The position numbers were made by a program, and so were the translations under genes. Shown one piece after another: positions 18,218-63,873 of a stretch of DNA of 64,000 nt. Origin of the DNA: a virus (lineage: Duplodnaviria > Caudoviricetes); the IMG/VR virus record IMGVR_UViG_3300034061_004620; one strand, given 5' to 3'. Positions within the stretch are counted from its first letter, which is position 1. Every line of letters begins with the position of its first letter. Below the pieces are notes generated by a model that did no database searches, had not been told where the DNA came from, and worked only from the letters and a program-made list of their open reading frames with translations.

Positions 18218-18859
18218 ATGGCTTTGTACCTAAAAGAGAATCTTACTTTCGACCGAGCTCAGATAGAGGTCCTAACCGAAGACTCTACAATCGGCGAAGG
18301 TAAGAATCTATATATGAAAGGGATATTCATTGAGGGAGGCGTAAAAAATGCCAACCAACGTGTTTATCCTATTTCTGAAATTCAGAAAGCCGTAACACAA
18401 ATCAATGAACAAATTAAAACAGGACATTCTGTTTTAGGCGAAGTTGATCACCCTGATGACCTAAAGATTAATTTGGATCGTGTTAGCCACATGATTACTG
18501 AAATGTGGATGGACGGTCCTTGCGGCCACGGTAAGCTAAAAATCCTGCCAACACCCATGGGCAAGCTTGTCGAAGCAATGATTACTTCAGGCGTTAAATT
18601 AGGTGTTAGTAGTCGTGGTAGTGGCGAAGTTAATGAAAGTACAGGACATGTCAGCGGTTTTGATATTATCACCGTTGACATTGTAGCACAGCCTTCGGCT
18701 CCGCATGCATATCCTAAAGCAATCTATGAGGGCTTGATGAATATGCGTCACGGACACCGAGTGTTAGATGTGGCTCGTGATGCCACACAAGATCAAAAAG
18801 TACAGAAGTACCTGAAAGAAGGCATTACACGCCTTATCAAAGACCTTAAGTTAAAATAG
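18218..18859 (+). CDS. gp21: Prohead core protease
   Basis: GIFIEGGVKNANQRVY, LGEVDHPD, LDRVSH, GVSSRGSG and PSAP motifs. Confidence 0.95.
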   Translation: MALYLKENLTFDRAQIEVLTEDSTIGEGKNLYMKGIFIEGGVKNANQRVYPISEIQKAVTQINEQIKTGHSVLGEVDHPDDLKINLDRVSHMITEMWMDGPCGHGKLKILPTPMGKLVEAMITSGVKLGVSSRGSGEVNESTGHVSGFDIITVDIVAQPSAPHAYPKAIYEGLMNMRHGHRVLDVARDATQDQKVQKYLKEGITRLIKDLKLK

Positions 18860-18869
18860 GAGAAACCTG

Positions 18870-19976
18870 ATGTTATTAGATGCTATCAAACCATTGGTAG
18901 ACAGCGGCATCATAAACGAAGATACGCAACAGGCGATCACGGAAGCGTGGGAAGCAAAGCTTCTTGAAGCTCGTGAAAGTGTTCGTGCAGAACTTCGTGA
19001 AGAATTTGCTACTCGCTATCAGCATGACAAACAAGTTATGGTTGAAGCTCTGGACAAAATGGTAACTGAATCTCTACACAGTGAACTTGAAGAGTTTGCA
19101 GCAGAGAAACAAGCATTAGCAGAAGATCGTGCGAAATTCAAAGTTCACATGATGGAAAGCAGCGAAAGGTTCAACAATTTCTTAGTTGGTAAGTTAGCCG
19201 AAGAAATTAAAGAACTACGTGAAGATCGTAAACAATATGAAAACAGTGTTAGTAAGCTTGAATCATTTGTGATCAAATCACTCGCAGAAGAAATTCAAGA
19301 GTTTGAGCAAGACAAGCAAGCAGTAGTTGAGACAAAAGTTCGTCTAATTGCTGGTGCTAAAGATAAACTTGCCGAACTGCAACAGAATTTCATTGCTCGT
19401 TCTGCAGAACTTGTTAAAGAATCAATTACCAGAAAACTGGAGTCAGAAATGACTCAACTCAAAGAAGACATCCAACTTGCTCGTGAGAACATGTTTGGTC
19501 GTCAAATCTTTGAAGCTTTTGCAAGTGAATTTGCAGTTACTCACCTAAATGAGAACAAAGAAATTCGCAAGCTACAAGCTGTTGTTGCTGCTAAAGAGCA
19601 AGCTTTACAAGAAGCACAAGCTCATGTAGAAAAAGCTGCAATGATTGTTGAATCAAAAGAAAAAGAAATTAAAGTTATTAAGGAATCAGCAGAACGCAAA
19701 GAAATACTTGCAAGTCTGTTAAAACCTTTAAACAAGGAGAAAGCTACAGTAATGAGCGAACTTCTTGAAAGTGTGCAAACTGTAAAGTTACAGAGCGCAT
19801 ACGACAAGTATCTACCAGCTGTTTTAAACAACACAGCACAGAAGCCAACACAGCAAAAAACTGTATTGTCAGAAAGCCGTGTAGAAGTAACTGGTGATAA
19901 ATCTGCTAATTCACTCGCTGTGGAAGAAAACGCCAATAACGTTTTTGAAATCAAGCGATTAGCAGGGCTAAAGTGA
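18870..19976 (+). CDS. gp22: Prohead scaffolding protein
   Basis: Glu-rich coiled-coil protein between gp21 and gp23, ending EIKRLAGLK. Confidence 0.8.
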   Translation: MLLDAIKPLVDSGIINEDTQQAITEAWEAKLLEARESVRAELREEFATRYQHDKQVMVEALDKMVTESLHSELEEFAAEKQALAEDRAKFKVHMMESSERFNNFLVGKLAEEIKELREDRKQYENSVSKLESFVIKSLAEEIQEFEQDKQAVVETKVRLIAGAKDKLAELQQNFIARSAELVKESITRKLESEMTQLKEDIQLARENMFGRQIFEAFASEFAVTHLNENKEIRKLQAVVAAKEQALQEAQAHVEKAAMIVESKEKEIKVIKESAERKEILASLLKPLNKEKATVMSELLESVQTVKLQSAYDKYLPAVLNNTAQKPTQQKTVLSESRVEVTGDKSANSLAVEENANNVFEIKRLAGLK

Positions 19977-20002: not shown

Positions 20003-21214
20003 ATGTCACAAGCACTATTAGAAAGCCGTTGGGGCGAAACAAAAGACGCTCTGCTCGAAGGCTTAAACGGTTCGAAAAGAACCACAATGGGTGTAATTCT
20101 TGAAAATACCCGCAAGCACTTGATGGAAACTGCAACTGCAGGTGCCACTGCTGCTTCAAATGTAGCTACACTTAACCGTGTAATTCTACCAGTAATTCGT
20201 CGTGTAATGCCGACAGTTATTGCTAACGAAATCGTTGGTGTTCAGCCAATGACTGGACCTGTTGCTCAGATCCACACACTACGTGTTCGTTATGCTGACA
20301 ACACTACTGATACCACAAGTGGATACTATCCAGCAGGTGAAAACGGTAGCACAACAGCAGGCGACGAAGCACTAAGTCCGTTCAAGATTGCTGTTGCTTA
20401 TTCTGGTTTAACCAATGGTGGCACTGCTACTAACGGTAGAGCAGCTTCAACAAGCACACTTGAAGGTGTAACAGGTAACAGAATCAACGTTCAGATTCTA
20501 AAGCAAGTTGTGGAAGCCAAGACTCGTAAGTTATCAGCTCGCTGGACTTTCGAAGCTGCACAAGATGCACAAGCCATGCATGGTTTAGACATCGAAGCAG
20601 AAATCATGGCAGCTCTTGCACAAGAGATCACTGTTGAGATCGACCAAGAAATTTTAGGTTCACTACGTAGCCTTGCAGCAACTGAGTTTACATTTGACCA
20701 AGCTGCTGTTAGTGGTACTGCTACTTTCGTTGGTGACGAACACGCTGCTTTGGCTGTTCTAATCAATCGTACAGCAAACCTAATCGCTTCACGTACACGT
20801 CGTGGCGCTGGTAACTGGGCAGTTGTAAGTCCAGCAGCTCTAACTGTGTTACAGAGCGCAACAACTTCAGCATTTGCTCGTACAACTGAAGGTACATTTG
20901 AAGCACCTACTAACACTAAGTTTGTTGGTACACTAAACGGTGCAATGCGTATCTATGTTGACAGCTATGCACGCGACAGCCAGGCTGTTTTAGTTGGTTA
21001 TAAGGGTTCAAGCGAGGCTGATGCAGCCGCGTTCTACTGCCCATATATTCCTCTAATGAGTTCTGGTGTTGTGTTAGATCCAAGTACATTTGAGCCAGTA
21101 GTTGGTTTCATGACTCGTTATGGTTATATCGAGTTAACAAACACAGCGTCATCGTTTGGTAACGCTGCTGACTACCTTGGCGAAATTGCTGTTTCAAATC
21201 TATCGTTCCAGTAA
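20003..21214 (+). CDS. gp23: Major capsid protein
   Basis: VGVQPMTGP, KTRKLSARWTFEAAQDAQAMHGLDIEAE, FYCPYIPL and GFMTRYG motifs. Confidence 0.96.
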   Translation: MSQALLESRWGETKDALLEGLNGSKRTTMGVILENTRKHLMETATAGATAASNVATLNRVILPVIRRVMPTVIANEIVGVQPMTGPVAQIHTLRVRYADNTTDTTSGYYPAGENGSTTAGDEALSPFKIAVAYSGLTNGGTATNGRAASTSTLEGVTGNRINVQILKQVVEAKTRKLSARWTFEAAQDAQAMHGLDIEAEIMAALAQEITVEIDQEILGSLRSLAATEFTFDQAAVSGTATFVGDEHAALAVLINRTANLIASRTRRGAGNWAVVSPAALTVLQSATTSAFARTTEGTFEAPTNTKFVGTLNGAMRIYVDSYARDSQAVLVGYKGSSEADAAAFYCPYIPLMSSGVVLDPSTFEPVVGFMTRYGYIELTNTASSFGNAADYLGEIAVSNLSFQ

Positions 21215-51656: not shown

Positions 51657-52093
51657 TGGCAGCAAAATTTGCAAATGGTTTTTACCAAATTTTAAACCCA
51701 GACAAATATGTAGGAAAGAAAGTTCCACATTTCAGAAGCAGTTGGGAACACACATTTATGAGATTTTGTGACACTAATCCGGCGGTGTTGCAGTGGGCCA
51801 GTGAAGCAATACACATACCATATCGCAATCCTTTTACAAACAAAAATACAATTTATGTGCCTGATTTTATGATCATGTACGTGAATAAAAATGGTGACAA
51901 GTATGCAGAACTTATTGAAGTAAAACCTACTAAAGAAACCAATCTTCAAGAAGCACGTAGCGAAAGAGACAAAGCCTCGGCAATTTTAAATATGTACAAA
52001 TGGCAAGCAGCCCAAGCCTGGTGCAGCCAAAATGGTTTACGCTTTCGTGTTATAACTGAAAATGATATCTTCCATCAAGGACGAGCTCGGTAA
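51656..52093 (+). CDS. gp4: Head completion protein (TnsA-like nuclease fold)
   Basis: FRSSWE..FM..CD.NP....WASE...IPY...Y.PDF...IEVKP. Confidence 0.88.
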   Translation: MAAKFANGFYQILNPDKYVGKKVPHFRSSWEHTFMRFCDTNPAVLQWASEAIHIPYRNPFTNKNTIYVPDFMIMYVNKNGDKYAELIEVKPTKETNLQEARSERDKASAILNMYKWQAAQAWCSQNGLRFRVITENDIFHQGRAR

Positions 52094-52101: not shown

Positions 52102-52599
52102 ATGACCAAAAAACTCTCAGAACTCTTTGATCTTCCTACTAATTTGCCTTCAACAGAATCTGCTGAATCAAACGAAGCTTTGAAAGCCATTGCTGACAAC
52201 AAAGAAATAATTGCCCGAGTAGACGAAGCTATAGACAAAATTGATATAGCATTGCCTACAGTGCGTGATCTCGAAGCCAGTGACCAAGAAATGGACGAAC
52301 TTGCAAACTTGGCTAAAGACAAATTTAACGATCTGATGGATTTAGGCATGAACATGGATCCAAGATTTGGCGGAGTGGTATTTCAAACAGCAGGCACATT
52401 GCTGGGTCATGCTATCACAGCCAAAACAGCCAAAATGGACAAAAAGCTACGTATGGTACAACTACAGCTACAGAAGGCCCGACTGGACCACCAAGTGAGC
52501 AAAGACGCACCAGAGGATCGTCCTATAGATGGACAAGGCATTGTGCTTGACCGTAATGCATTACTGGAACAGATTCTCCAAAAGAACAAAAACACATAA
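52102..52599 (+). CDS. Putative terminase small subunit (gp16-like)
   Basis: Helical protein of suitable size and position, with a PR...V..T...LL segment and C-terminal V.DRNALLEQI. Confidence 0.55.
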   Translation: MTKKLSELFDLPTNLPSTESAESNEALKAIADNKEIIARVDEAIDKIDIALPTVRDLEASDQEMDELANLAKDKFNDLMDLGMNMDPRFGGVVFQTAGTLLGHAITAKTAKMDKKLRMVQLQLQKARLDHQVSKDAPEDRPIDGQGIVLDRNALLEQILQKNKNT

Positions 52600-52624: not shown

Positions 52625-53245
52625 ATGAAAAGTCTCCACGATTATATAGCAGAACGAAACTCAAACTACAGTTTTAGGATCAAGGTAGCAAAACAAAACC
52701 CCAAAGATATCATGGAAGAAATCAAGAACGCTCTTGATGCTTACGAACTTGTAGATATCACCACACCAAAAAGTATGCCGGTACAAGAGCATAGAGAATT
52801 TCCCAAGTGGGGTGCATGCGAATGTTGGCAATTTGAAGCCACAGTGGCATATCCTACTACTACAGTACAAATCGCACAATTACTTAAAGAACGCACAGGC
52901 ATGCAGGCCGAGTGGGTTTGTGTGTACGGCAAACAACAAGCAGATCAAAACGATTATGCCGAAGCTTATGGCAAGGATCACGAAGGCGCACTATTGTTAG
53001 ACGGAGAACTCAAAGACGTACCCGGTGGGCAAGATCTTGTGGCAGAAAAGCGCAAAGACAGCTTATTAAAAGAACTTGATAAGAAGAGTCCATTACTAAC
53101 AGGCCCTGGCGAACCAGACTTAGTGACTACCCACGCAAAAGAAAGAACCAAGCCAGCACAAACAACTAATGCACTTCCGCAAGGTACTAAGAGTCCTGTA
53201 GGTAGCCAACAAAACAAATTACCCCCAATTAAAGGAAGAAAATAA
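52625..53245 (+). CDS. Hypothetical head-internal protein
   Basis: Start moved to ATG 52625 (AGGA RBS). MKSLHDYIAE resembles the T4 capsid targeting sequence MKTYQEFIAE. Confidence 0.7.
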   Translation: MKSLHDYIAERNSNYSFRIKVAKQNPKDIMEEIKNALDAYELVDITTPKSMPVQEHREFPKWGACECWQFEATVAYPTTTVQIAQLLKERTGMQAEWVCVYGKQQADQNDYAEAYGKDHEGALLLDGELKDVPGGQDLVAEKRKDSLLKELDKKSPLLTGPGEPDLVTTHAKERTKPAQTTNALPQGTKSPVGSQQNKLPPIKGRK

Positions 53246-54222
53246 TGAGCAACAATATCTATGACATCTTGAAAAAGATGCAACGCCTTGAGTCACCCAA
53301 GCAGGTTCTTGCAGAAGGTAAAAAAGCAAAACCTGATTTTGCAGACCTTGACAAGGATGGTGACAAAAAAGAGCCTATGAAAAAAGCTGCCAAAGAAAAA
53401 AACAAAGGCGCAATCGCAGAAGCAGTTGCTCGAGTTGAAAAGAATTTAGCAGAAAAGTACATGAGCTACAAGAAACGACTGGGCGAAGAGTCTGACATGA
53501 TTAGAAAAGTTATTCCGGTCAATGTCATTGATGGCCCTGGCGGTTACGAAGAAGCACAAAAGCGTATTAAAGATCATGAATCATCAAAAGTAAAGAGACA
53601 AGAAATGCCAGGTAAAGAGTTACCTCCAGTAGACGATAGATCTCGACCAGCCGACAAGCCCAAGACTAAAGAAGTAGATGAAAGTGGCTTACAAGCGTAT
53701 CTTGGCAAAAAGAAGTATGGCAAAGAAGGTATGCAGGCATTACAGAAAGCAGGCCGCGAAGGTGCAAGTAAAGAAAAAATGGCCAGCATTCGTGCCCGTC
53801 ATGACAAGATGGATGAAGACGCATACAATGAAGACATGCTGAGTCCTAAGCAACAAAAAATTGCTCGTATGGCCGGGGATCCTAAAAAAATTGACGCCAA
53901 CGATCTAAAAGCTTTGCGAGCCGGTAAGAACAAAAAAGCCGAAGGCAATGCTTTTAGTGGCGCTTTAGATGCAGCAAGAGACGCTGGCAAATCTGAATTT
54001 GAAGTCGACGGAAAAAGCTATAAAGTAAAAGAAGGCTGGGACGAAATGCTAAAAGCACAAAAAGAACGTAGCGGTCCACAACCCAGTGGCGGATCAGGCA
54101 TTAAGCAAGGCAAACGTTATGGTGGCGGCGCACAAACCGACGAACCAGACACAGATAACGAAACAGGTGAAGTAGCTAAAAAAGGCCGCGGTCGCCCTAA
54201 AAAAGATAAATTTGCAAAATGA
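53245..54222 (+). CDS. Modular charged head-internal protein with a C-terminal AT-hook
   Basis: K/E-rich. Contains KPDFADLDKDGDKKE and ends KKGRGRPKK. Confidence 0.7.
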   Translation: MSNNIYDILKKMQRLESPKQVLAEGKKAKPDFADLDKDGDKKEPMKKAAKEKNKGAIAEAVARVEKNLAEKYMSYKKRLGEESDMIRKVIPVNVIDGPGGYEEAQKRIKDHESSKVKRQEMPGKELPPVDDRSRPADKPKTKEVDESGLQAYLGKKKYGKEGMQALQKAGREGASKEKMASIRARHDKMDEDAYNEDMLSPKQQKIARMAGDPKKIDANDLKALRAGKNKKAEGNAFSGALDAARDAGKSEFEVDGKSYKVKEGWDEMLKAQKERSGPQPSGGSGIKQGKRYGGGAQTDEPDTDNETGEVAKKGRGRPKKDKFAK

Positions 54223-57200
54223 AAATTCGTGAAATAGCCAAACAGTCTTCATTACAAGAAGGTGCAATATCTAACAAAGTGTTACCTGGTTTGAGTTTTG
54301 CTGACGCTGGTATCAGAGTGGCTGAAAAAGATTATCCCGGTGCCGCCATTGCTGGCACAGCAGCTGGGCTAAGTCTAATACCAACAATACCCACACAAGC
54401 TGCCAGTATTGGTTTAGAGGCATTTAATCAATTACGCGACGAAGCTGCGCGACGCGGTGGTTGGGGAAATCTTGGCAGAGATATGATGAAGTCTGTCAGG
54501 GATGGTGATTTTGATCATATCCATATGCTACCAGAAGAATTTGACAAATTAGATCAATTAGAACGAGCAGGCAAACTTGACGAAGGTGGTTTAACAAGTA
54601 TTCCAGGCTGGATAGCCAAATACGGTGATGATGCTGTTCGGTGGTTAAAAACTGTCGGAAGACGCGATAAACCAGATGCTCCTGCTTCTAAGCCAGAAGT
54701 ACCAGATGCCTCGGTACCTTCTAAGAAGCCATACACCAGAGACGAAGATTTGCCTATTGTGGGGCGAGATACACCTACTCCACCACCGGCCTCAACTCCT
54801 GTAGAATTACCAAAACAAAAACGATTTGAATCAGACAAAGCATATTTAGACAGATTACAAAAAATGGGTCCTGAGTTTGTGCAAAAGAAAACACAAATGG
54901 ATCAAGCTCTGATTAGTGCTAATCAAGCAAAAGAGTTAAGTAAAGGACCAGTTAGAAAAGGATTAGAAACAACTGGAAAATTCTTAGTAAGGAACCCAAT
55001 AACATGGGGTGCAGGGGCATACGGAGGATACGAAGCAGCTAAAGAATACGGACCAGATATAGGACGAAAATCGATTGAATGGTGGCGACAAGGTCCTGAA
55101 AAAGAAATTCTCCAAAAAGCTCCTGAAGGCGAATTGCTGTCAGACATTATAAAAGGTGTAACAGCACAACCTCCAGCCAATGCACCGGCTCCGGTGACAC
55201 CAGAAAAACAGCAAGAACTCCCACCGCATATAGATCCTGCCACCGGCAAAACAAGGGACCAAGGCGCCAGACTTGATGACAAAGAAAAAACATTGACTGA
55301 GAAATATCAACAGTTTCTCAATGACGATAAAAAGCCGCAATACACCAAGGAACAGTTTATTCAATTGGCTGCAAAATATGCCAAGCAGTATGATGTTCCA
55401 TTGCCTGTAGTCTTACATGCCATGCGTAAGGAAACTGGTGCGTATGATGCAAACACCGCAGCCACAGTTCTTGGACCCAAAACCAAATATGGACAAGCAG
55501 TTGGTGTCATGCAGTTGATGCCATCATTCTTTAAAACATTAAAACCTGAAGATCTAACAAATCCAGATCGAAACATTGAAGCTGGTACAAAATTTTTAGC
55601 AAACTTGTACAAGACATACGGCAGTGCCGAAGCAGCCCTGGCAGCATACAACGCCGGACCATATAATAAAAAATTTAAGGCTTGGCTTAAATCCAATGAT
55701 CCAAAAGATTTACCGGCACAGACCAGAGAATATCTCTACGGCGATCCACGAAAGAAAACTGTTGGCTATGTTGATGATGTAGCACAACAAGTTGCGCTAT
55801 TGAATCCACCGAGCACCAGAGATAAAGTTGTAAAGGTAGCTACAGACGTATTGGCTGCTGCCACAGGATCAGGCGACGCACAAGCAGCAAACAGCAAAAA
55901 ATCTAAAGCTGAAGTCATCAGCGGCCCTCAATATCCACCTCACGGTACACCAATAGAGAAAGTACAACTACCTGGTCATTGGACCAATCCTGTATTGAAA
56001 CCTTTAGATGGTAGAGTACACATGCAGTTGCAAGATTTAAGTGGCGAGTTTAAAGCGGCCTTAGATAAAGCCATGGCCGATTATGCCAAAGACAATCCAG
56101 GAGTTACAATTACTGTAACCAGCGGAGTGAGAACTCCCGAAGATCAAAAGGCTTTGGCCAAGCGAGCAGCAATAGAATATGAAAAAATGAAAAGGGGAGA
56201 GCCGAACAATTATATACCTGCCTCAAAAGAATTAGCCGGACATGCAGGATATGCCATTGACATGAACACTCCTGATCTGGTAAAATTTTCCAAATGGTTG
56301 CGAAAAAACGATCCATATGACAAAAAAAATCCAAGCAACACAAAATACGGATTGCAAGACGGATTCGAAATAGCAGACCGTGTGCATTTACAATTGAGAG
56401 GCTACGAGCAATTAGATTCAGAAAAGGCCAGAAGAGCATACAATAAAAACTTGCCTATAGATAAACAAATTCTAACTGCCTCTGATTGGGAATCGTATGT
56501 ACAACGCACAGAAGCCGAAAAACTGGCTTTAGCGCAGCCTAAAGACAAGAAACTAACCGATCCCGGACTTGGTGGTGCTCCAGAAGCCCAGGCTGATACA
56601 ACATCAAAAGCAGATAACAGTAAACCTCTCAAATTTCCTTCTATTAGATCAGATATACCATCCGTTGATTACCAGTCTCAAGGTGATGACACACCGGCTA
56701 AATCAGCTGAAAAGAAAGCAGAAAAGCCAGCTGATAAACCTGCCGACAAAGACAAATCTAAAGCAAAAACTCGCGTTACAACAGATGCAACGGGAAGAGA
56801 AACAACATATACTCAAAATGAAAAAGGCCAATGGGTCGATCCTCGAGGCAATATTATGCCCGCACCCGAAAAACCAGGATCAAGAAAAGATCTTGATATC
56901 ACTGACAAAGGCGGAGACCCCAGTGCAGCAGATTTAGAAAAATCAAGAAACATAACCGGTCGTAAAGATCCTCTCATCGATCCTGACACTGGTTTTCCTA
57001 CCACAGAAAAAGCCTTACGCGACAAACTTACTCAGCGTGCCGCCGACGAAAAGGCAGCAGCAGAACGAGAAGCCAAGCGTATTGCTGACTTAGAAAAAAT
57101 TCAACGAGATGCAGAAGCCAGGAAAAAGGCCGAAAAACCAGCCGACAAAGAAGCAGGTAAAGCAGATGCAGGCACAGGTCTTGCTGGCACAGACACAGGC

Positions 57201-58040
57201 AAAGACAAAGGTAAAGCAGATAAACAACAACGTGTGCCAGCTGCACCTGCTGCTGAAGTTCCTGCTGCAGACGCAAAAGATAAGTCTGCTAAAATAAATG
57301 TACGTAAAGAATTTGAAAAGGCCTTTGCAGCAGCAAGAGCCGCACAGGCGTTAAAGACCGGAAAAGGCAGTGGAGGAACATTCACATGGACAGATCCACG
57401 AACTGGTAAAGAAAGTACATATACTACAGACTACGGTGATGAGGTCAAAGATAAAAAGTCAGTAAAGGTGGTACCTAAAGCTGAACCTAAAGCCGAACCA
57501 AAAGCCGATGCTGGTGCTGACACATACTGGGTAGATCCAAGACTATCAAAAGTGCCATACGATGTTATACGCAAGCAGATTAAACCTGATTATACAGTGG
57601 ATGCAGATCCGGATGCAATAAAAGTTCCACGAGCTACAGAACCTGATACAGATACAAAATTGCCATCACAGACACGTAGTGTGAGCGAGCCAGACCGTGC
57701 CAATGTATTACGTTCCACAGACGGCACCCCAGTTACATCAGGCACAGGCGAACCGTGGGGTACCGGCACCAGTACCAAGAAAGATATAGAACGTGCCAAG
57801 GATGAATTGCAGAAAAAAATTGATGATGAAAAATTCAAAAAAGAATTGCAAAAAATTAGTCCTGATTTGTCAGAACCCGAACAAGGTAATAGATGGATTG
57901 ACAAATGGAATCAAGGCATAGAAGCACTAACTGGTAAAGAAAGAATGACACCCGATGACATGAACAGGATACGTGTTCCAGAATCGGTAAATACAGAACT
58001 GAATGACATATTATGGTTGGCTGGAAGGGTAAAAAGATAA
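54219..58040 (+). CDS. 1273-aa internal protein with lytic transglycosylase (SLT) and peptidase M15-like domains
   Basis: SLT: AMRKETG...GVMQLMP...NIEAGTKFL...ALAAYNAGP. M15-like: ITVTSGVRTPEDQ...GH.G.AID...DRVHLQL. Confidence 0.8.
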   Translation: MKIREIAKQSSLQEGAISNKVLPGLSFADAGIRVAEKDYPGAAIAGTAAGLSLIPTIPTQAASIGLEAFNQLRDEAARRGGWGNLGRDMMKSVRDGDFDHIHMLPEEFDKLDQLERAGKLDEGGLTSIPGWIAKYGDDAVRWLKTVGRRDKPDAPASKPEVPDASVPSKKPYTRDEDLPIVGRDTPTPPPASTPVELPKQKRFESDKAYLDRLQKMGPEFVQKKTQMDQALISANQAKELSKGPVRKGLETTGKFLVRNPITWGAGAYGGYEAAKEYGPDIGRKSIEWWRQGPEKEILQKAPEGELLSDIIKGVTAQPPANAPAPVTPEKQQELPPHIDPATGKTRDQGARLDDKEKTLTEKYQQFLNDDKKPQYTKEQFIQLAAKYAKQYDVPLPVVLHAMRKETGAYDANTAATVLGPKTKYGQAVGVMQLMPSFFKTLKPEDLTNPDRNIEAGTKFLANLYKTYGSAEAALAAYNAGPYNKKFKAWLKSNDPKDLPAQTREYLYGDPRKKTVGYVDDVAQQVALLNPPSTRDKVVKVATDVLAAATGSGDAQAANSKKSKAEVISGPQYPPHGTPIEKVQLPGHWTNPVLKPLDGRVHMQLQDLSGEFKAALDKAMADYAKDNPGVTITVTSGVRTPEDQKALAKRAAIEYEKMKRGEPNNYIPASKELAGHAGYAIDMNTPDLVKFSKWLRKNDPYDKKNPSNTKYGLQDGFEIADRVHLQLRGYEQLDSEKARRAYNKNLPIDKQILTASDWESYVQRTEAEKLALAQPKDKKLTDPGLGGAPEAQADTTSKADNSKPLKFPSIRSDIPSVDYQSQGDDTPAKSAEKKAEKPADKPADKDKSKAKTRVTTDATGRETTYTQNEKGQWVDPRGNIMPAPEKPGSRKDLDITDKGGDPSAADLEKSRNITGRKDPLIDPDTGFPTTEKALRDKLTQRAADEKAAAEREAKRIADLEKIQRDAEARKKAEKPADKEAGKADAGTGLAGTDTGKDKGKADKQQRVPAAPAAEVPAADAKDKSAKINVRKEFEKAFAAARAAQALKTGKGSGGTFTWTDPRTGKESTYTTDYGDEVKDKKSVKVVPKAEPKAEPKADAGADTYWVDPRLSKVPYDVIRKQIKPDYTVDADPDAIKVPRATEPDTDTKLPSQTRSVSEPDRANVLRSTDGTPVTSGTGEPWGTGTSTKKDIERAKDELQKKIDDEKFKKELQKISPDLSEPEQGNRWIDKWNQGIEALTGKERMTPDDMNRIRVPESVNTELNDILWLAGRVKR
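57986..57993 (+). promoter_or_regulatory. Possible late promoter (GGTAAATA) inside the end of the upstream gene
   Basis: About 50 nt upstream of ATG 58042. Confidence 0.4.
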
Positions 58041-58041
58041 A

Positions 58042-61000
58042 ATGAACATGCGAGAACTAATAAATCTAATAGAGGCACCGGCTCCTAAACAAGGTGTTAC
58101 TGGACAAAAACTTGCTCAAACAAGTGGCGGCCAATTTATGAATCGAGCCGATAGAACCAATCAAGCCAAAGTTGATGCAGCGTTAGGCCCAGGATTCAAA
58201 GCAGGAAGTGCAGCAGCCAATCAGGCATTAGCTAAAAAATTCAGTCAGCCACAAGCTGTACCGGCAGCAAACACAGCAAGTGCTCAACAATCAGCAGCAT
58301 TAGACACTTCCAAGGCAAATGCAATTGGTGGGCAACAGGCAGCAACCACGGCAGCAGCACCAGAACCAGACACAAGAGGTGCAGCAGCGATGGCAAGTAG
58401 ATCGGCCCCGGCCGCTGCAAATACAGAGCCAGTTCAAGCAGCAGCTCCTGCTCAAACTTCAGATCAGATTGCAACCGCTGCACTAAATGCACAAGATTCA
58501 ACACCACAAGCTGACACAAGAGGTGCAGCAGCAATGGCCAGTAGATCAACAAGTACTCCTGCTCAAACTTCAGATCAGATTGCAACCGCTGCACTAAATG
58601 CACAAGATTCAACACCACAAGCTGACACAAGAGGTGCAGCAGCAATGGCCAGTAGATCAACAAGTACTCCTGCTCAAACAACTCCGGATCAAATACCAAC
58701 TCAAACAGCAACAGCTCAAAGTATAGGTGCTACTAATTTGCAAGGCGAAAATCCAGCAGCACCAGCACAACAAAATACAGCAGCACCTGCTCAAGCAGGC
58801 GGATATGCTCAGAGTGCCACTGCCGCCACCAATAATCCTGCACCCAAGAGTGACTATCAGCCTGTAGCTGGAAGTTCTAATTTAGTCTCAAGAACCTCCG
58901 ATAAAATTGCAGCAGACGCAAAAGCTGGGCCTGGTGGGCAAAATCCTGCAACAAAAAGTTATGCCAGTTTTGGTGATTTTGCCAGTGCTGTAGGAAACAA
59001 AGTTAAAGGTTTTTTTGGTGGCAATCAACCAGCACCAGACGCAACTGCAGGTACTGGTCCTAATTTAGGTACAGGAACATTAGGCAGCACACCAAATGCA
59101 CAACAGCCGCCTGCATTTGTGCCGTCAGCTACAACAGCCGGCACCCCAGCTGCGTTTGGTAAAGTTGCCGAAGCTGATGCGCCAGTGAATTCCGCACCTC
59201 AGCAGCCGGCAGCAAAAACTCAAAAAGCACCAAGCATGTACGATGTTGACAAGGCCAACAGAAAAGAAATAGCAAGTCAATTTGACCCTAATTCAACTTA
59301 TGTAAATCCCCATGACAAAGATACACGAGCGTCTGCTCCAGGATCAAAGGCAGTAAACACCATGGCTGACTTTGAAGAAGATGTTGATCATGCATTGGCA
59401 GAGATGATGCGCTTGAGTGGTTTAACTTTGAGTGAAAAAGCACCACCAGGCAAGAAGGCCGAACGCATGGTTAAACACATTAAAAAAGGTTATGCCAAGG
59501 ACGGTAAACTCACAGACAAAGAAAAGTCAATTGCATTTGCAACTGCATGGAAACAGCACAACAAAGAAAAGGTAAACGAAGGCATGGACATTATGTTAGA
59601 CGAAGATGGGCATACACTAAAACATATCGTTAATAGATTCAAACATGAAACTAAAAATTTCATGAATACAGGATTTATGGCAGAGAACTTGTATGATGCA
59701 TTATATGATTATTATCTGGATAGAGGCGACATGCCTTACGGTATTGCCAAGGCAAGAGAAGGTGATCCATACGAGTGGGTAGAAGAACACTTCTATGCAG
59801 ACATGGGCAGTCAAATGAGTGAAGGTGCTGTAGCAGAACAAACTGTGGACCCACTGAGTGAATTAGCACGTTTGGCTGGATTGTCAGAAGACGGTCCTGG
59901 ATCTGCTATGCTAAATGCCCCAAAGAAAGACACTGATTCATTTGCAGACAGAATGAGAAGTGCAGGAAAAGAAATTAGGCGTACGATTGATCGCGCAACA
60001 TTGCCAGCTGCAATGAGAGCAGATTATGATAGAATTGAAGCAGAAAAAGAAAGAGCCTCAGCTCCTGTAGCAACACCAGCAGTCGCTAAAGCTGATGCAT
60101 TTAAAGATGCAATGGGTTCTGGATCCAACAAAGCACAAGCAGATGACAAATTGAAAGAAATGGGCGACAGTCCATTGGCAAGACTCAATCAAATGCCACA
60201 AACTAAAGGACAAGAACCAAGTTCGGGTGCAGCGAGCTCGTTCGCACCACGTGAGCGCGAGCGTGTGGTTAGCCCCAAGATTGACAAATACGAAAAAGAC
60301 AAAGAACGTGCAGAAAAAGCCAGAAGAGATATTGTTGATAGAGAAAGTCCAGATGCTAATACATTTGGTCGTAAAATAGGCAAAGCAGTATCAGAACCAG
60401 TTGCAGCAATCAAGAGTGCATGGCACGGTGCAACAGATGCCTGGGATCATACTATGGGCAATGATACAGCCCCAGATCCAAAACCACCAGTTAGTGTTGT
60501 TAACAAAAGAGACTGGAAAGGTGACAAGGATAATCCTGCACTAAAAGAAAATGACGAGTTAAATCGTATGCGTAAAATTGCCGGACTACAGGAATGTGGA
60601 GATATGGGCATGGAACGCGATCATATGCAACAAAAAGATCGATTGAATGTTACCACAAACATGAGCAGTGATGGTACCAAGGACGTCACTATCAATGCAC
60701 AAGGTGACGCCGCAGAAGATCTACTGTCTATGTTGAAACTGGCAGGTATGGAAAGACATCATCAGCCTACAATGGTCATGATTGACCGCGATGAAGAAAT
60801 GATGGAACGAGAAGAAACTCCTGTACCTGATGATGGTAATGTATTAGGTGGTATGGGAGATTTTGAACAAATAGATGCAATAGACGAAGCCAAGAAGAAG
60901 CGTATTACACGTCATAGCAACACACCCGACGAAGAATATCAAACCGTAGATAGTATTCTACGTCAAGGCAATGATCTCAACAGAGAAAAACGCCAGTACA

Positions 61001-61575
61001 AGAAAGAATACCCCGGCGACAATCCAATGTCTGAAAGCATGCTTGATCAAGACTTAAACGACATCCTTGAGAGCATCTTGATTCGCGAAGAACCTATTCC
61101 AACTACTACAGATCCTGAGACAGGACGAGTAAAAGCAACATTACCCTCAAATTTTTTCCGTCCTGGTAAAAAACGTGATCGTGCCAGTCAAGAGATACCA
61201 ATGGAACCTGAATCGCCAGAATCTCGTGTAACTGGGCCACGCAGTATGAAAATACCTGGTGAGCGAACAGGTACAGAAAACTTTGGTAAAGACAAAGAAG
61301 TTGACGAAGGTTGGGAAGATGTAAAAACAGGTGTATCTAACTTTGTTGGAGATCTTTTTAACACAGACGACAGTATACGCAGAAGAAGCGGGCAGTTTCG
61401 TGATCTTGAAGCTATGCAACAAAAGTATAAACCTGGAACTCCAGAGTATGATCAATTGGAAATGCGTAAGACCAAGCAAAAAGAAAGGTATTACGGAGAC
61501 CAAGGTGAAGTGGTAGGTAAAGACGGCGAACCAATTAAAGTATTACCACCTGATCAATGGAAAGGTGGCAAGTGA
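58042..61575 (+). CDS. 1177-aa low-complexity modular internal protein
   Basis: A/Q/P/T-rich N-terminal half followed by charged modules. Starts MNMRELINLIE. Confidence 0.75.
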   Translation: MNMRELINLIEAPAPKQGVTGQKLAQTSGGQFMNRADRTNQAKVDAALGPGFKAGSAAANQALAKKFSQPQAVPAANTASAQQSAALDTSKANAIGGQQAATTAAAPEPDTRGAAAMASRSAPAAANTEPVQAAAPAQTSDQIATAALNAQDSTPQADTRGAAAMASRSTSTPAQTSDQIATAALNAQDSTPQADTRGAAAMASRSTSTPAQTTPDQIPTQTATAQSIGATNLQGENPAAPAQQNTAAPAQAGGYAQSATAATNNPAPKSDYQPVAGSSNLVSRTSDKIAADAKAGPGGQNPATKSYASFGDFASAVGNKVKGFFGGNQPAPDATAGTGPNLGTGTLGSTPNAQQPPAFVPSATTAGTPAAFGKVAEADAPVNSAPQQPAAKTQKAPSMYDVDKANRKEIASQFDPNSTYVNPHDKDTRASAPGSKAVNTMADFEEDVDHALAEMMRLSGLTLSEKAPPGKKAERMVKHIKKGYAKDGKLTDKEKSIAFATAWKQHNKEKVNEGMDIMLDEDGHTLKHIVNRFKHETKNFMNTGFMAENLYDALYDYYLDRGDMPYGIAKAREGDPYEWVEEHFYADMGSQMSEGAVAEQTVDPLSELARLAGLSEDGPGSAMLNAPKKDTDSFADRMRSAGKEIRRTIDRATLPAAMRADYDRIEAEKERASAPVATPAVAKADAFKDAMGSGSNKAQADDKLKEMGDSPLARLNQMPQTKGQEPSSGAASSFAPRERERVVSPKIDKYEKDKERAEKARRDIVDRESPDANTFGRKIGKAVSEPVAAIKSAWHGATDAWDHTMGNDTAPDPKPPVSVVNKRDWKGDKDNPALKENDELNRMRKIAGLQECGDMGMERDHMQQKDRLNVTTNMSSDGTKDVTINAQGDAAEDLLSMLKLAGMERHHQPTMVMIDRDEEMMEREETPVPDDGNVLGGMGDFEQIDAIDEAKKKRITRHSNTPDEEYQTVDSILRQGNDLNREKRQYKKEYPGDNPMSESMLDQDLNDILESILIREEPIPTTTDPETGRVKATLPSNFFRPGKKRDRASQEIPMEPESPESRVTGPRSMKIPGERTGTENFGKDKEVDEGWEDVKTGVSNFVGDLFNTDDSIRRRSGQFRDLEAMQQKYKPGTPEYDQLEMRKTKQKERYYGDQGEVVGKDGEPIKVLPPDQWKGGK
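58445..58679 (+). repeat. Exact 111-bp tandem duplication (37 aa)
   Basis: CTCCTGCTCAAAC starts at 58445, 58556 and 58667. Confidence 0.9.
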
Positions 61576-62633
61576 TGAAAACGTTTCGCGAATATCTCAA
61601 CGAAGCAGAACTGACAGAAGGAAATCCTGCTGTTGGGGATATTTTTGAGTTAGAAATAGCCAGAGACGAAACTTTGCTCGAAACTTATATTGTTGATGTG
61701 TTTGAGGATGGAATAGTATTAGAAGCAGACGACACCATGATGAGAATTTTAACGCATGTTGGATATATAACAGAAGATTCAAACATGCCCACTGCTCGAG
61801 ATTCTATCAGTCCAATACATTCAAATGTGAACAGAGACAAAAGCTCCGATGACGACCTCATGGACAAAGACTCAGGTGCCACACCACCTGCTCGTCCTAC
61901 ACGCGATGCGGTAGACACTAAGCCGCTAACCGAGCCAAAAAACAAAAAAGATCCCAAAGACTACATGGTGCATGAGGCGCCCGAAGGATGGGGACAAGAT
62001 ACCATGACCAACAAAGACGGTTCGGTGATGAAATACAACCCCGATGATGACAGTTACAGCATGGTATCTCCTCCTACGGTAAAGCCTACTAAAACGTCAA
62101 TGTCGGTGATTGATACTCATAGATCACAAGATCGCAGCTCGTCTAAAGGAGATAGTACACACAAGCAGGAATTTACATCTGCTTCGTTTGCAAGAGATCC
62201 CAAAACTGGCGCAGGCGATTATTACATATCTCGATCAACAGATGATGATTACGACGATGACTTTCAGCAAGATGTAAGTGCCCCTTGGATGAACTATACG
62301 CAAGCCAAAGCAAAATATGATTCAGATCTTATGTTTGGTAAAAAAACAGCCATGCCTCAAGGGCCAATGAGTCAGTTCAGAGCACCAACCAATGAAGCCA
62401 AATATCAAGGTCGTGAAGTTCCGTTAGGCAAGAAGATGAAGGGCGATGTTAAGAAGAGTAAAGTGTATGTAAGAGGACCCAAAGGTAATGTAGTTAAAGT
62501 GAACTTTGGCGATCCTAACATGACAATCAAAAAGTCAAATCCAGCCCGTCGTAAAAGTTTCAGAGCAAGACACAATTGCGCCAATCCAGGACCAAGATGG
62601 AAAGCAAGGTACTGGTCATGTAGGAGTTGGTAA
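61575..62633 (+). CDS. Modular internal protein with a basic Cys/His/Trp C-terminal domain
   Basis: Start moved to ATG 61575 (TGATG overlap), giving MKTFREYLNE. Ends RRKSFRARHNC...ARYWSCRSW. Confidence 0.75.
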   Translation: MKTFREYLNEAELTEGNPAVGDIFELEIARDETLLETYIVDVFEDGIVLEADDTMMRILTHVGYITEDSNMPTARDSISPIHSNVNRDKSSDDDLMDKDSGATPPARPTRDAVDTKPLTEPKNKKDPKDYMVHEAPEGWGQDTMTNKDGSVMKYNPDDDSYSMVSPPTVKPTKTSMSVIDTHRSQDRSSSKGDSTHKQEFTSASFARDPKTGAGDYYISRSTDDDYDDDFQQDVSAPWMNYTQAKAKYDSDLMFGKKTAMPQGPMSQFRAPTNEAKYQGREVPLGKKMKGDVKKSKVYVRGPKGNVVKVNFGDPNMTIKKSNPARRKSFRARHNCANPGPRWKARYWSCRSW

Positions 62634-63418
62634 TGACAGATCCAAGATTTTTTAGACAGTATTTAGAGATATTAAAAGAAGGCCCTCCTGCAGGTGTTGG
62701 TCCTAATGCACCTATAAAACAACCTGTGCAGCAGCCAGCTAATACCAGTCAAGAACCAAGCCAATTTCAACAGGCCAAGGATGCAGTAGGGCAACAATAT
62801 CAAAATTACAAAGATATATCGGGACAACTTGATCAAGGTGTACAACAAGGATTAATCAGCAAAGATGTGGCCGATAAAACAAGAAGTTATGCACAAGGTT
62901 CAATGTTAAGAGGTGGTTGGGAGGCAGGTAAAGCAGCAATGCAAGGTCGTGATCCATCATCGGCCTATGTAGGTAGCTTGATTAGATCAATGGGTAATTT
63001 GGCTGCTGATTCTGGTCTTGATGATGCTGCAAAAAAACTTGGACAATTTGCAAGTCAGTATCGAGGTCCTAATGCCAAAGATATAACAAAAGATCCCGCA
63101 TACCTAAAAGCATCACCGGAACAACAAGCACAAGCCCGTAAAGATTTTGAAGCAATTAAATCATTGCCTGATGATGAATACAATTATATTTTTGGTGGCA
63201 ATGCGTTTAAGGAACGTGGCGCACAGGCAGCTCAAGTTGGTCAAGACATGATTGATCAAAAAGATTGGGGTACAGGTCGTAGCGCAGGGTTTTCACCAAA
63301 AGCAAATGAACTTTTTGGATTAGATCCAACTCGTCAGGCAACTGATGCAGAAATGCAAGCGGCAGCAACAGGTACCAACGAAGAATTAGATAGACTCAAA
63401 CAACTTATTAGAAGATAA
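62633..63418 (+). CDS. Hypothetical internal protein
   Basis: Starts MTDPRFFRQYLEILKE (TAATG overlap) and ends EELDRLKQLIRR. Confidence 0.7.
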   Translation: MTDPRFFRQYLEILKEGPPAGVGPNAPIKQPVQQPANTSQEPSQFQQAKDAVGQQYQNYKDISGQLDQGVQQGLISKDVADKTRSYAQGSMLRGGWEAGKAAMQGRDPSSAYVGSLIRSMGNLAADSGLDDAAKKLGQFASQYRGPNAKDITKDPAYLKASPEQQAQARKDFEAIKSLPDDEYNYIFGGNAFKERGAQAAQVGQDMIDQKDWGTGRSAGFSPKANELFGLDPTRQATDAEMQAAATGTNEELDRLKQLIRR

Positions 63419-63873
63419 TGAGCGATCCAAGATTTTTTAGACGATACTTAGATATTCTTGACGAACAACCTGTCACTGCAAACATTGATGACTACACAAG
63501 CGTGACTGTTGATCCTACAGCAAAAAATCTTGCAATGCAAACCAAGATTGGGGACTTGGATCTCAAAGCAACGCATGACCGTTCCGCAATCCCGGCCAAT
63601 CAAATTTCAGCCAATTACCAAGTGGACCCTAAATTAAAGGTTGGCGGCACACACACTCAAGCAGGATATAAAGGACAAATGACTCCTACCACTCAAATTT
63701 CAGCCAACTACGACGATCCTGATGTTGGTAAAGCTGATCTACAAGTAGATAAAGGTGCCATGTTCCAGGGTGCAGGAAAAAATATTCAGCAAGGAAATCC
63801 CGCTATCGTAACTGCCAAATTTACAAACCCACAAGGCCAAACAGCCACTTACAATACAAACAGAAACTTATAA
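63418..63873 (+). CDS. Hypothetical internal protein
   Basis: Starts MSDPRFFRRYLDILDE, nearly identical to the N-terminus of the upstream gene. Confidence 0.7.
   Translation: MSDPRFFRRYLDILDEQPVTANIDDYTSVTVDPTAKNLAMQTKIGDLDLKATHDRSAIPANQISANYQVDPKLKVGGTHTQAGYKGQMTPTTQISANYDDPDVGKADLQVDKGAMFQGAGKNIQQGNPAIVTAKFTNPQGQTATYNTNRNL

What the first reader, a model, noticed from the sequence alone, without database searches (positions are those of the whole stretch)
53245..62633. Internal proteins look like polyproteins of small modules separated by gp21-type cleavage sites
In 53245-54222, hydrophobic-X-E sites (VLAE/G, LGEE/S, VDE/S, MDE/D, YNE/D, KAE/G, VKE/G) delimit 25-60-aa blocks. These include an EF-hand-like DLDKDGD block, a FSGALDAARDAGKSEFEVDGKSY block (echoed by FEKAFAAARAA...TFTW in the next gene) and an AT-hook GRGRPKK. 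The same punctuation appears in 58042-61575 (LSE/K, VNE/G, MSE/G, LKE/N, LQE/C, IDE/A, VDE/G) and in 61575-62633 (LTE/G, ITE/D, VHE/A, TNE/A). Inference: the prohead protease releases a library of mini-effectors for DNA condensation or anti-defence, as T4 IPI does against GmrSD.
Basis: inference. Interest (0 to 1): 0.7.

Follow-up and report, generated by a model that had tools for sequence, protein, structure and literature searches.

The report
Capsid-addressed, protease-cuttable phage cargo polyproteins
An uncultured giant T4-related lake phage has an operon of proteins that begin with a T4-style "load me into the head" peptide; three of them are strings of small interchangeable modules joined at the cutting motif of the phage's own head protease, so they are probably packed into the capsid and cut into pieces, though no cut has been measured.

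Summary
The listed hydrophobic-x-Glu sites are all present and exceed chance. [LIVM]-x-E-[GAS] is enriched in A (53245-54222), C (58042-61575) and D (61575-62633), as it is in this phage's own scaffold and its gp21-type (Peptidase_S77) protease; control motifs are not enriched. All seven consecutive genes (52625-63873) start with a T4 capsid-targeting-like leader ending in h-x-E.

- Indel boundaries in the A family and local-homology boundaries in the C family cluster on these sites.
- One relative carries a single 720-aa protein that interleaves A and C modules, each still preceded by h-x-E.
- D's 78-aa, +19 basic C-module starts at Met-Ala in viruses outside the T4 group. In about 105 extended forms it is always preceded by Glu, usually L/V/I/M-x-E.

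B (SLT plus a weak VanY/M15-like match) is not a polyprotein. It carries a leader but avoids the motif in its body.

Cleavage, packaging and any effector role remain unmeasured, and no module function was found. This is a new variant of the T4 internal-protein/CTS system. The scan has already flagged the same kind of system in several other genomes.

The parts
18218..18859 (+). gp21-type prohead serine protease, the presumed cutting enzyme
   Evidence: Pfam Peptidase_S77 E=3.3e-25, above cut-off; phrog_207. It is itself enriched in [LIVM].E, 11 vs 4.1 expected.
18870..19976 (+). Scaffold/core-like protein, used as positive control for the motif
   Evidence: Lies between protease and MCP; phrog_10922. 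[LIVM].E 28 vs 14.2 and [LIVM].E[GAS] 12 vs 2.9.
20003..21214 (+). Gp23-type major capsid protein with an N-terminal propeptide carrying LLE|S, LLE|G, ILE|N and LME|T
   Evidence: Pfam Gp23 E=1e-100, domain starting at residue 54; sites.
52625..53245 (+). First leader-bearing gene (pre2), starting MKSLHDYIAE|R
   Evidence: Homologous and syntenic to PA5oct gp202, an MS-detected structural protein. The Glu at position 10 is not conserved in L010 or PA5oct.
53245..53316 (+). A leader, residues 1-24, ending VLAE|G
   Evidence: M1-K10, L22 and E24 are invariant in 14 diverged homologs.
53317..54219 (+). A body: mostly basic modules 25-81, 82-146, 147-191, 192-233, 234-263 and 264-325 (AT-hook-like end)
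   Evidence: Sites. E191, E196, E233 and E263 are invariant or nearly so. Inserted modules in relatives are bounded by h-x-E on both sides. Fragment charges +6, -1, +5, +5, -1, +4.
54219..58040 (+). B: leader (1-14, SLQE|G), conserved LTE|KY junction (359-363), SLT domain (383-487), weak VanY/M15-like match (618-693), C-terminal DILWLAGR motif
   Evidence: Pfam SLT 1.1e-16; VanY 0.038, below cut-off. Orthologs are 944-1386 aa at 25% identity. Motif avoidance in the body: 4 vs 11.4 expected, P=0.007.
58042..59361 (+). C leader (MNMRELINLIE|A) and a 430-aa A/Q/T/P-rich low-complexity region with a perfect 111-bp tandem duplication
   Evidence: The leader is conserved as ..LDLFE(E)|A in relatives.
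59437..59580 (+). C module 466-513 (phrog_30733; its cyanophage relative is annotated DUF6321), bounded by LSE| and VNE|
   Evidence: PHROG hit 464-513. Occurs as a 68-aa stand-alone gene in T4-like cyanophages. Occurs inside an A-type protein in L011, bounded by VSE| and VEE|.
59605..59889 (+). C folded helical domain 522-594, followed by the LSELARLAGLSE| helix (595-616)
   Evidence: AF2 pLDDT above 90. Homology ends peak at 617. The domain is tandemly duplicated or reordered in relatives.
59890..60594 (+). C insert 617-851, absent from most relatives, flanked by LAGLSE| and IAGLQE|
   Evidence: Most relatives join query residue 617 directly to 849.
60595..61572 (+). C distal modules 852-922, 950-998 and 1090-1177, with junctions MME|, IDE|, MSE|, IRE| and VDE|
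   Evidence: Boundary peaks at 924, 952-957, 998-1003, 1017-1019 and 1089. AF2 predicts folded parts at 867-900 and 1096-1151.
61575..61775 (+). D leader (MKTFREYLNE|AELTE|G) and acidic N-domain 16-67
   Evidence: E10 is invariant, and h-x-E at residues 13-15 is kept in the 16 full-length homologs aligned. AF2 gives a helix at 4-11 and a beta domain with pLDDT about 80. Net charge -11.
61776..62396 (+). D hypervariable middle (disordered 68-135; beta domain 143-253), ending in the nearly invariant TNE|A
62397..62630 (+). D C-module: 78 aa, net +19, pI 11.1 (phrog_7595)
   Evidence: Stand-alone forms start M-AKYQGR. T4-like forms carry a leader plus LxE|A. About 105 distinct N-extensions all end in E.
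62633..63873 (+). E and F: two unrelated bodies behind a shared 18-aa leader (M[TS]DPRFFRxYLxIL[KD]E|)
   Evidence: 13/18 identical in the leader and no other similarity. An ortholog in L010 has the same leader.

Best explanation
Genes 52625-63873 form a tightly packed late operon of head-internal (cargo) proteins in a T4-related jumbo phage of about 350 kb; five of the six gene junctions overlap stop and start. Each protein begins with a short amphipathic leader like the T4 capsid-targeting sequence, which would dock it to the scaffolding core during prohead assembly (inferred from T4).

The Peptidase_S77 prohead protease, which in T4 cuts after L/I-x-E, would then remove the leaders. In A, C and D it would also cut at [LIVM]-x-E junctions lying between small modules, so that one precursor yields many pieces of 20 to 140 residues (inferred). 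These junction-plus-module units behave as evolutionary cassettes: they are inserted, deleted, duplicated and re-ordered between phages with the junction kept (shown by comparison).

Basic pieces probably stay with the packaged DNA and leave with it. These are A's Lys-rich modules with a GRP AT-hook-like end, C 466-513, and D's +19 C-module, which is masked in the precursor by an acidic N-terminal part. Acidic carrier pieces may be expelled like T4 core fragments (inferred).

B is a different kind of cargo: a large cell-wall hydrolase that keeps the leader and one conserved LTE|KY junction but avoids the motif elsewhere, so it would survive the protease largely intact.
For: 1. Protease, scaffold and capsid protein are of the T4 type. 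Published gp21 specificity is L/I-x-E, and T4 internal proteins carry 10-19-residue targeting propeptides (PMC9026906).
2. A leader with h-x-E at positions 8-26 occurs in 7/7 operon genes against 5/44 other window genes, and two of those five are the scaffold and the MCP. Leaders are kept in relatives. E and F share only the leader.
3. The motif is enriched in A, C and D as in the scaffold and protease; controls are flat apart from E.[LIVM] in C.
4. A family: 44% of 142 indel boundaries lie within 2 residues of [LIVM].E against 12% expected.D and .K controls are flat or depleted. Inserts carry their own terminal site, with a variable P2 residue.
5. C family: 48% of 594 local-homology boundaries lie within 3 residues of a site against 18% under circular shifts, with 0 of about 716 shifts reaching the observed value. 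The same holds in the target sequences: 43% vs 16%.
6. A 720-aa protein in locus L011 interleaves A and C modules, each preceded by h-x-E: VSE|VAPPG, ITE|GWDDM, MEE|GNEF, MDE|CGPG.
7. D's C-module begins at M-A in a siphovirus and an archaeal spindle virus. It follows a leader plus LxE|A in two Kyanoviridae phages. It is preceded by E in all of about 105 distinct extensions, with L/V/I/M at P3 in about 85%.
8. B's body avoids the motif: 4 vs 11.4 expected, P=0.007; ortholog L009 6 vs 11.3, P=0.04.
10. The syntenic PA5oct homolog of pre2 was detected in virions by MS.
Against: - There are no proteomic or biochemical data: no cut, no packaging and no ejection has been observed for any of these proteins.
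- Boundary statistics count related sequences, so the number of independent events is smaller than the counts suggest.
- Some conserved junctions are not canonical (KAE|G, YNE|D, TNE|A).
- The Glu of pre2's leader is not conserved.
- Several sites lie inside predicted helices or strands (C 548, 582, 785; D 25-50) and are probably not cut.
- By a crude count, sites are not clearly enriched in residues with pLDDT below 50 (9/20 vs 37%).
- No module matched a known fold or family, and D's C-module was modelled with low confidence.
- Module function is therefore unknown.
Confidence: 0.6

Rival explanations
1. A, C and D are disposable auxiliary core or scaffold proteins, like T4 gp22, gp67 and gp68. 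They are loaded into the prohead, chopped at many L-x-E sites so that the pieces can leave, and have no role after assembly.
For: - Their motif enrichment mirrors the scaffold's.
- They hold long low-complexity and acidic stretches.
- Their number and size vary freely between relatives: two proteins in L011 against six or more here.
- In T4 and SPN3US, multiple cuts serve to clear fragments from the head (PMC9026906; PMC5694885).
Against: - Individual modules are conserved at 50-95% identity across widely diverged phages.
- Two modules exist as stand-alone genes, including in viruses outside the T4 group.
- 7544 short proteins carry D's C-module.
- The basic charge of many pieces suits retention on DNA.
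- Some pieces may still be expelled, so this rival partly overlaps the best explanation.
Confidence: 0.2
2. The proteins are modular, largely disordered virion or non-virion proteins that are not cut internally. On this view the h-x-E at module edges is a helix-capping or linker habit, or a recombination hot spot.
For: - No cleavage has been measured.
- h-x-E is common in amphipathic helices.
- Repeated junction peptides (KMDE, LAGLxE) could promote illegitimate recombination.
- Some junctions are non-canonical.
Against: - The excess is specific to Glu: [LIVM].D and [LIVM].K show no excess in the block-shuffle test or at A-family and C-query boundaries, and [LIVM].D only a small one in C-family targets (14% vs 10%); the reversed motif E.[LIVM] is enriched only in C.
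- P2 varies freely at equivalent junctions, so selection acts on the peptide pattern rather than on DNA identity.
- The same pattern marks this phage's known protease substrates.
- B shows motif avoidance, which is expected only if the protease sees these proteins.
Confidence: 0.12
3. The block is tail-associated. B would be a tape-measure or tail-lumen lysin, and its neighbours tail-internal proteins ejected ahead of the DNA.
For: - The operon follows the sheath, tube and gp4-like genes.
- tblastn hits to B's SLT region fall in annotated tape-measure proteins of siphoviruses.
- B has Gly/Ala-rich hydrophobic stretches.
Against: - B orthologs range from 944 to 1386 aa in close relatives whose tube (207 aa) and sheath (1088-1108 aa) are the same size, which is unlike a length ruler.
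- In relatives the block lies between a TerS-like gene and TerL.
- CTS-like leaders and motif statistics tie the genes to the head protease.
- B is not helix-dominated by eye. This point is weak, because B was not modelled.
Confidence: 0.08

Closest known systems
Phage T4 internal proteins IPI, IPII, IPIII and Alt: capsid targeting sequence (CTS) plus gp21 processing
   Same: - A short N-terminal leader ending in L/I-x-E.
- A phage with an S77 protease, a core and a Gp23 shell.
- Leaders conserved on unrelated, fast-evolving bodies.
- Basic, Lys-rich cargo.
(PMC9026906, PMC3012670.)
   Different: - T4 internal proteins are single small proteins cut once (Alt is cut at both ends).
- Here the precursors are up to 1177 aa and string many modules at internal sites.
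- There is no sequence homology to T4 internal proteins.
- The genes form one operon that, in relatives, lies between the TerS-like gene and TerL.
T4 prohead core proteins gp22, gp67 and gp68, which are cut into multiple fragments, a few of which are retained
   Same: Many L/I-x-E sites in one chain; some fragments stay in the head and most leave (table).
   Different: - Those proteins are essential shape-determining scaffolds with no mobile, separately conserved modules.
- Here the modules recur as stand-alone genes and in shuffled orders.
Ejection and inner-body proteins of phiKZ, 201phi2-1 and SPN3US, processed by S80 proteases
   Same: Giant-phage head cargo cut after Glu; long propeptides cut at several motif copies (PMC5694885, PMC10052503).
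   Different: - The protease family differs (S80 there, S77 here).
- The motif differs (A/S/G-x-E there).
- In those phages the multiple cuts destroy one N-terminal propeptide and do not separate interchangeable modules.
- There is no homology.
Polyvalent proteins of phages and conjugative elements (Iyer et al. 2017, PMC5512222)
   Same: Multi-domain, virion-delivered proteins proposed to be split into separate units after or before delivery.
   Different: - Those carry their own embedded peptidase (MPTase) and mostly enzymatic conflict domains.
- Here no embedded processing peptidase was found.
- Cutting would be done in trans by the prohead protease.
- Most modules are tiny and non-enzymatic.
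Polyproteins of RNA viruses
   Same: One chain, many products, with a protease motif at each junction.
   Different: This is an operational analogy only. Here cutting would take place inside a DNA-phage prohead and the products would be cargo, not replication or structural proteins.

Membership tests
T4-type capsid-targeted internal proteins (CTS class) | N-terminal leader of about 10-20 residues ending in L/I-x-E | tested here: met
   Present in 7/7 operon genes and kept in relatives. pre2's Glu is not conserved.
T4-type capsid-targeted internal proteins (CTS class) | Encoded by a phage with a gp21-type (S77) prohead protease and a Gp23 shell | tested here: met
   Pfam Peptidase_S77 3.3e-25; Gp23 1.1e-100.
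T4-type capsid-targeted internal proteins (CTS class) | Conserved leader on unrelated or hypervariable mature parts | tested here: met
   E and F share only the 18-aa leader. D has a hypervariable middle. The A and C families are mosaics.
T4-type capsid-targeted internal proteins (CTS class) | Physically packaged in the head and ejected with the DNA | not testable with these tools
   Only an indirect hint: the PA5oct homolog of pre2 was MS-detected in virions.
T4-type capsid-targeted internal proteins (CTS class) | Cleaved after Glu by the prohead protease | not testable with these tools
   Indirect only: motif enrichment, conservation, junction position, and avoidance in B.
T4-type capsid-targeted internal proteins (CTS class) | Sequence homology to T4 IPI, IPII, IPIII or Alt | tested here: not met
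   No such Pfam or PHROG family matched. T-even internal proteins are themselves mutually unrelated, so this is a weak criterion.
Polyvalent proteins (Iyer et al. 2017) | Embedded processing peptidase (MPTase or similar) in the same chain | tested here: not met
   Pfam finds only SLT and a weak VanY-type cell-wall peptidase match in B, and nothing in A, C or D.
Polyvalent proteins (Iyer et al. 2017) | Several distinct effector or enzymatic domains in one virion-context protein | tested here: inconclusive
   B has SLT plus an M15-like domain. The modules of A, C and D have no assignable activity.
phiKZ-like ejection / inner-body proteins | S80 protease and A/S/G-x-E motif | tested here: not met
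   The protease is S77. P3 at the junctions is mostly L/V/I/M.
Tail tape-measure protein (for B) | Length conserved among close relatives and acting as a tail ruler; sits with tail-assembly genes | tested here: not met
   Orthologs are 944, 1273 and 1386 aa while the tube and sheath are equal in size. B is flanked by leader-bearing genes between the TerS-like gene and TerL.
T4 core proteins gp22/gp67/gp68 | Multiple L/I-x-E sites in one chain | tested here: met
   C 23 sites vs 13.2 expected; D 9 vs 4.2.
T4 core proteins gp22/gp67/gp68 | Homology to gp22, gp67 or gp68, or an essential scaffolding role | tested here: not met
   No family match. Essentiality cannot be tested here.

The most novel reading that the evidence does not exclude
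T4-related jumbo phages of lakes and oceans use the prohead protease as a release enzyme for a combinatorial cargo system. A capsid-address leader is followed by a string of [LIVM]-x-E-delimited cassettes that are exchanged between phages like beads. One precursor then delivers dozens of mini-proteins with the DNA, including a protamine-like +19 module kept inert by an acidic pro-region.
Probability: 0.4. Interest if true: 0.8.

Novelty: new variant of a known kind. Interest (0 to 1): 0.62.

Why it matters
T4's capsid-targeting sequence and its diverse internal proteins are textbook material, but they are single small proteins. If long precursors are cut into many exchangeable modules, three things follow.
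- The cargo space of giant-phage heads would be far richer than gene counts suggest.
- The rule "leader plus L-x-E-bounded cassette" would give a sequence-only way to predict injected proteins in thousands of uncultured phages. That matters because injected proteins are where first-minute counter-defence functions sit.
- It would explain the very abundant orphan mini-genes of aquatic phages: the DUF6321-annotated proteins of T4-like cyanophages, and phrog_7595 with 7544 short homologs here.

The idea can be tested directly by virion mass spectrometry or by an in-vitro protease assay.

Tried and rejected
- The whole genome is not held for this window.
- Megablast of the block against cultured phages found nothing. 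tblastn of A found nothing.
- tblastn of C and D found only single modules.
- The search for related loci with B returned only two near-identical contigs.
- Pfam on ten separate blocks gave only a sub-threshold AT-hook. PHROGs gave only families of unknown function.
- AF2 models of D and of C 430-1177 matched nothing in the PDB. In BFVD the D model matched only uncharacterised uncultured-phage proteins, and the C model was not searched there.
- D's C-module was modelled with pLDDT below 50.
- The ESM Atlas returned only unnamed viral clusters. A 25% share of DUF5754 in one cluster is a lead I did not confirm.
- BLASTP did not support the A/B 'echo'.
- A search for the T4 late promoter TATAAATA found no copy in or just upstream of the operon.
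- I considered a tape-measure reading for B and rejected it, because ortholog length varies and the gene context does not fit.
- I considered an EF-hand reading for A 31-43 and did not adopt it, because Pfam gives no match and loop positions 8 and 12 are non-canonical.
- No complex prediction was run.

Full report
**What the window is.** The window comes from a T4-related jumbo myovirus.
- It holds a T4-type portal, a Peptidase_S77 (gp21-type) prohead protease (18218-18859, E=3.3e-25), a scaffold-like gene and a Gp23 capsid protein (E=1e-100).
- It also holds a sheath about 40% identical to those of PA5oct and Atu_ph07, a tube, and a gp4-like head-completion gene at 51656-52093.
- Identical proteins occur on contigs of 346-352 kb from metagenomes.
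- No whole genome is held, and no cultured phage shares the block at the DNA level.

**The unit is wider than the finding.** Seven consecutive genes are involved: pre2 52625-53245, A 53245-54222, B 54219-58040, C 58042-61575, D 61575-62633, E 62633-63418 and F 63418-63873.
- Five of the six junctions have overlapping stop and start codons.
- All seven begin with a short leader ending in hydrophobic-x-Glu: MKSLHDYIAE|R..VLAE|G, MKIREIAKQSSLQE|G, MNMRELINLIE|A, MKTFREYLNE|AELTE|G..YLEILKE|G and ..YLDILDE|Q.
- In the whole window such a leader occurs in 7/7 of these genes and in 5/44 others, two of which are the scaffold and the capsid protein.
- Relatives keep the leaders even where the bodies differ. 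E and F share 13 of 18 leader residues and nothing else.
- This is the pattern described for T-even internal proteins: a 10-19-residue capsid targeting sequence on otherwise unrelated proteins, removed by gp21 at L/I-x-E (PMC9026906, PMC3012670).

**Check of the observation.**
- With shuffling inside 60-residue blocks, [LIVM].E[GAS] is enriched in A (4 vs 1.1, p=0.02), C (8 vs 2.8, p=0.002) and D (4 vs 0.6, p=0.003).
- The same motif is enriched in the two expected protease substrates, the scaffold (12 vs 2.9) and the protease itself (5 vs 0.8).
- [LIVM].D, [LIVM].K, the reversed motif and other spacings are not enriched, apart from E.[LIVM] in C (22 vs 13.4, p=0.007). Sheath, tube, portal and fibre proteins show nothing.
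- B is not enriched. Its body (residues 123-1273) holds only 4 [LIVM].E against 11.4 expected (P=0.007), and one ortholog shows the same (6 vs 11.3, P=0.04), while control motifs sit at or above expectation.

*A family (1228 hits).*
- The family is a mosaic. L22/E24, E196, E233/G234 and E263/G264 are invariant, and E191 nearly so.
- Inserted modules sit exactly at the junctions and bring their own terminal site. Examples: KMDE[GD]|insert..KMDED|..SLDEG|..KTDEG|..PLDEQ|; VQE[GED]|insert..SMRE|G..KVKE|G; LTE|GK insert..VDE|SKG.
- Of 142 indel boundaries, 44% lie within 2 residues of [LIVM].E against 12% expected. [LIVM].D and [LIVM].K boundaries are flat or depleted.

*C family (phmmer against 1.84 billion representatives, 1548 hits).*
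- Local-homology ends pile up at 617, 924, 998-1003 and 1017-1019. Starts pile up at 848, 952-957, 524 and 461. These lie next to sites 616, 922, 998, 1016, 851, 949, 521 and 465.
- 48% of 594 boundaries are within 3 residues of a site, against 18% under circular shifts, and no shift reaches the observed value.
- In the target sequences themselves the figure is 43% vs 16%.
- Most relatives join residue 617 directly to 849, so the window's C carries a 231-residue insert flanked by LAGLSE| and IAGLQE|.
- The 525-592 domain is tandemly repeated two or three times in some relatives and re-ordered in others.

*A chimera in a relative.*
- In L011 the whole cluster is reduced to one 720-aa protein plus a 135-aa D.
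- The 720-aa protein has A's leader and interleaves C's 463-513 module (74% identity), A's last module, C's 548-614 domain, A's 233-261 module and C's 849-1013 part.
- Each of these is directly preceded by h-x-E: VSE|VAPPG, ITE|GWDDM, MEE|GNEF, MDE|CGPG.

**D gives the cleanest case.**
- The family has a conserved leader and a small acidic N-domain, then a hypervariable middle, then an invariant E274|A275, then a 78-residue module of net charge +19.
- In a pelagiphage siphovirus and a Nitrosopumilaceae spindle virus the module is a stand-alone gene starting M-AKYQGR or M-AIYRGR, exactly at A275.
- In two T4-like Kyanoviridae phages it follows a CTS-like start and LTE|A or LEE|A.
- Among the 120 best of 7544 short homologs there are about 105 different N-extensions. 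All end in Glu, with L/V/I/M at P3 in about 85% and a free P2.
- A cut there would release the same protein that other viruses encode directly.

**Structure predictions.**
The model shows a helix at 4-11, an N-domain at 23-61, disorder at 68-135, a beta domain at 143-253, and a low-confidence C-module.
- In C 430-1177 the folded parts are 524-595, 634-673, 746-804, 867-900 and 1096-1151.
- No fold match was found.

**What B is.**
- B has an SLT domain (E=1e-16) and a weak VanY/M15-type match.
- Its orthologs are only 25% identical and 944-1386 aa long. They keep the leader, an L-x-E|KYxxFLN junction and a C-terminal DILRLAGR motif.
- By eye, their enzyme region differs between phages.
- Together with the motif avoidance, this fits a cargo enzyme that meets the protease but must stay whole. 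It does not fit a polyprotein or a tail ruler.

**Mechanism proposed, and its status.**
- Shown:
  - T4-type protease and core genes are present.
  - The operon genes share CTS-like leaders.
  - The motif is in excess in A, C and D and avoided in B.
  - The junctions are conserved.
  - Modules are exchanged at the junctions.
- Inferred from T4:
  - The leaders dock the proteins to the core.
  - The S77 protease removes the leaders and cuts accessible junctions.
  - Basic pieces stay on the DNA and are ejected. These are A's modules (+4 to +6), C 466-513 (+8) and D's C-module (+19).
  - Acidic carriers leave the head.
- Unknown: every module's function. 'Anti-defence' is a guess.

**Comparison with what is known.**
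- T4 internal proteins and the CTS, T4 core proteins cut into peptides, multi-cut propeptides of phiKZ and SPN3US cargo (S80 protease, A/S-x-E), and the 'polyvalent proteins' with embedded peptidases (PMC5512222) each share part of the logic.
- In the paper searches I ran, no paper described long precursors made of exchangeable small modules joined at the prohead-protease motif.
- Earlier notes of this scan describe the same kind of system in at least eight other genomes. I did not test them and they are not independent evidence.

**Verdict.** This is a new variant of a known kind. Interest is moderate to high because it can be tested directly.

Noticed in passing
window 58445-58679: A perfect 111-bp tandem duplication (2.1 copies, 100% match) lies inside C's low-complexity N-terminal region, so a 37-residue unit was copied very recently.
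   Followed up: partly
window 59857-59889, 60562-60594, about 60718-60756, 57993-58037: A recurring amphipathic helix x-L-x-x-[LM]-x-[KR]-[LI]-A-G-[LM] appears as ELARLAGLSE|, NRMRKIAGLQE| and LLSMLKLAGM in C, and as DILWLAGRVKR at B's C-terminus. It is nearly invariant in the C family, flanks C's 231-residue insert, and also starts PA5oct gp203 (MFNINDILRLAGV). It may be a docking or protease exosite helix. Its function is unknown.
   Followed up: partly
window 43817-44191: A 124-aa gene next to the gp13-like gene starts MKIKDIIIE|Q, which is leader-like. It is 51% identical (E=1e-39) to a gene that sits inside the cargo cluster in relative L011, so it may be another head cargo protein placed elsewhere in this genome.
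   Followed up: partly
L010 11674-15831 and L009 11192-14023: By eye, B orthologs carry different wall-active parts at the same position. L010 has a lambda-lysozyme-like YD..GG..HP..G.YQ stretch, a GDS..GGND stretch and a LysM-like YTIKPGDTLDRIA in place of the window's SLT, M15-like domain and FEKAFAAARA..TFTW module. This was not checked with HMMs.
   Followed up: no
L009 17380-17820; L010 19322-19756: In relatives, a staphylococcal-nuclease (SNase) domain protein with a signal-peptide-like N-terminus sits just downstream of the cargo cluster, before an HNH gene and TerL. The cluster therefore lies between a TerS-like gene (window 52102-52599) and TerL.
   Followed up: no
window 51656-52093: The gp4-like head-completion protein (phrog_218) also matches Pfam Tn7_TnsA-like_N (E=4.5e-21), an endonuclease fold.
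   Followed up: no
window 18218-18859: The protease itself carries 11 [LIVM].E sites against 4.1 expected, including LKE|N at residue 7 and LTE|D at 21. This fits self-processing as in T4 gp21.
   Followed up: no
L001 (PA5oct) 26012-28140: PA5oct keeps the same order: gp4-like gene, TerS-like gene, pre2 homolog (gp202), then a 498-aa protein. Both gp202 and gp203 are annotated as MS-detected structural proteins.
   Followed up: partly
window 61620-61775: D's small acidic N-domain (GD.F.LEI....E......DG.V.EAD) is fused directly to the basic C-module in very many 132-137-aa proteins of aquatic metagenomes. It may act as a carrier or neutralising domain.
   Followed up: partly
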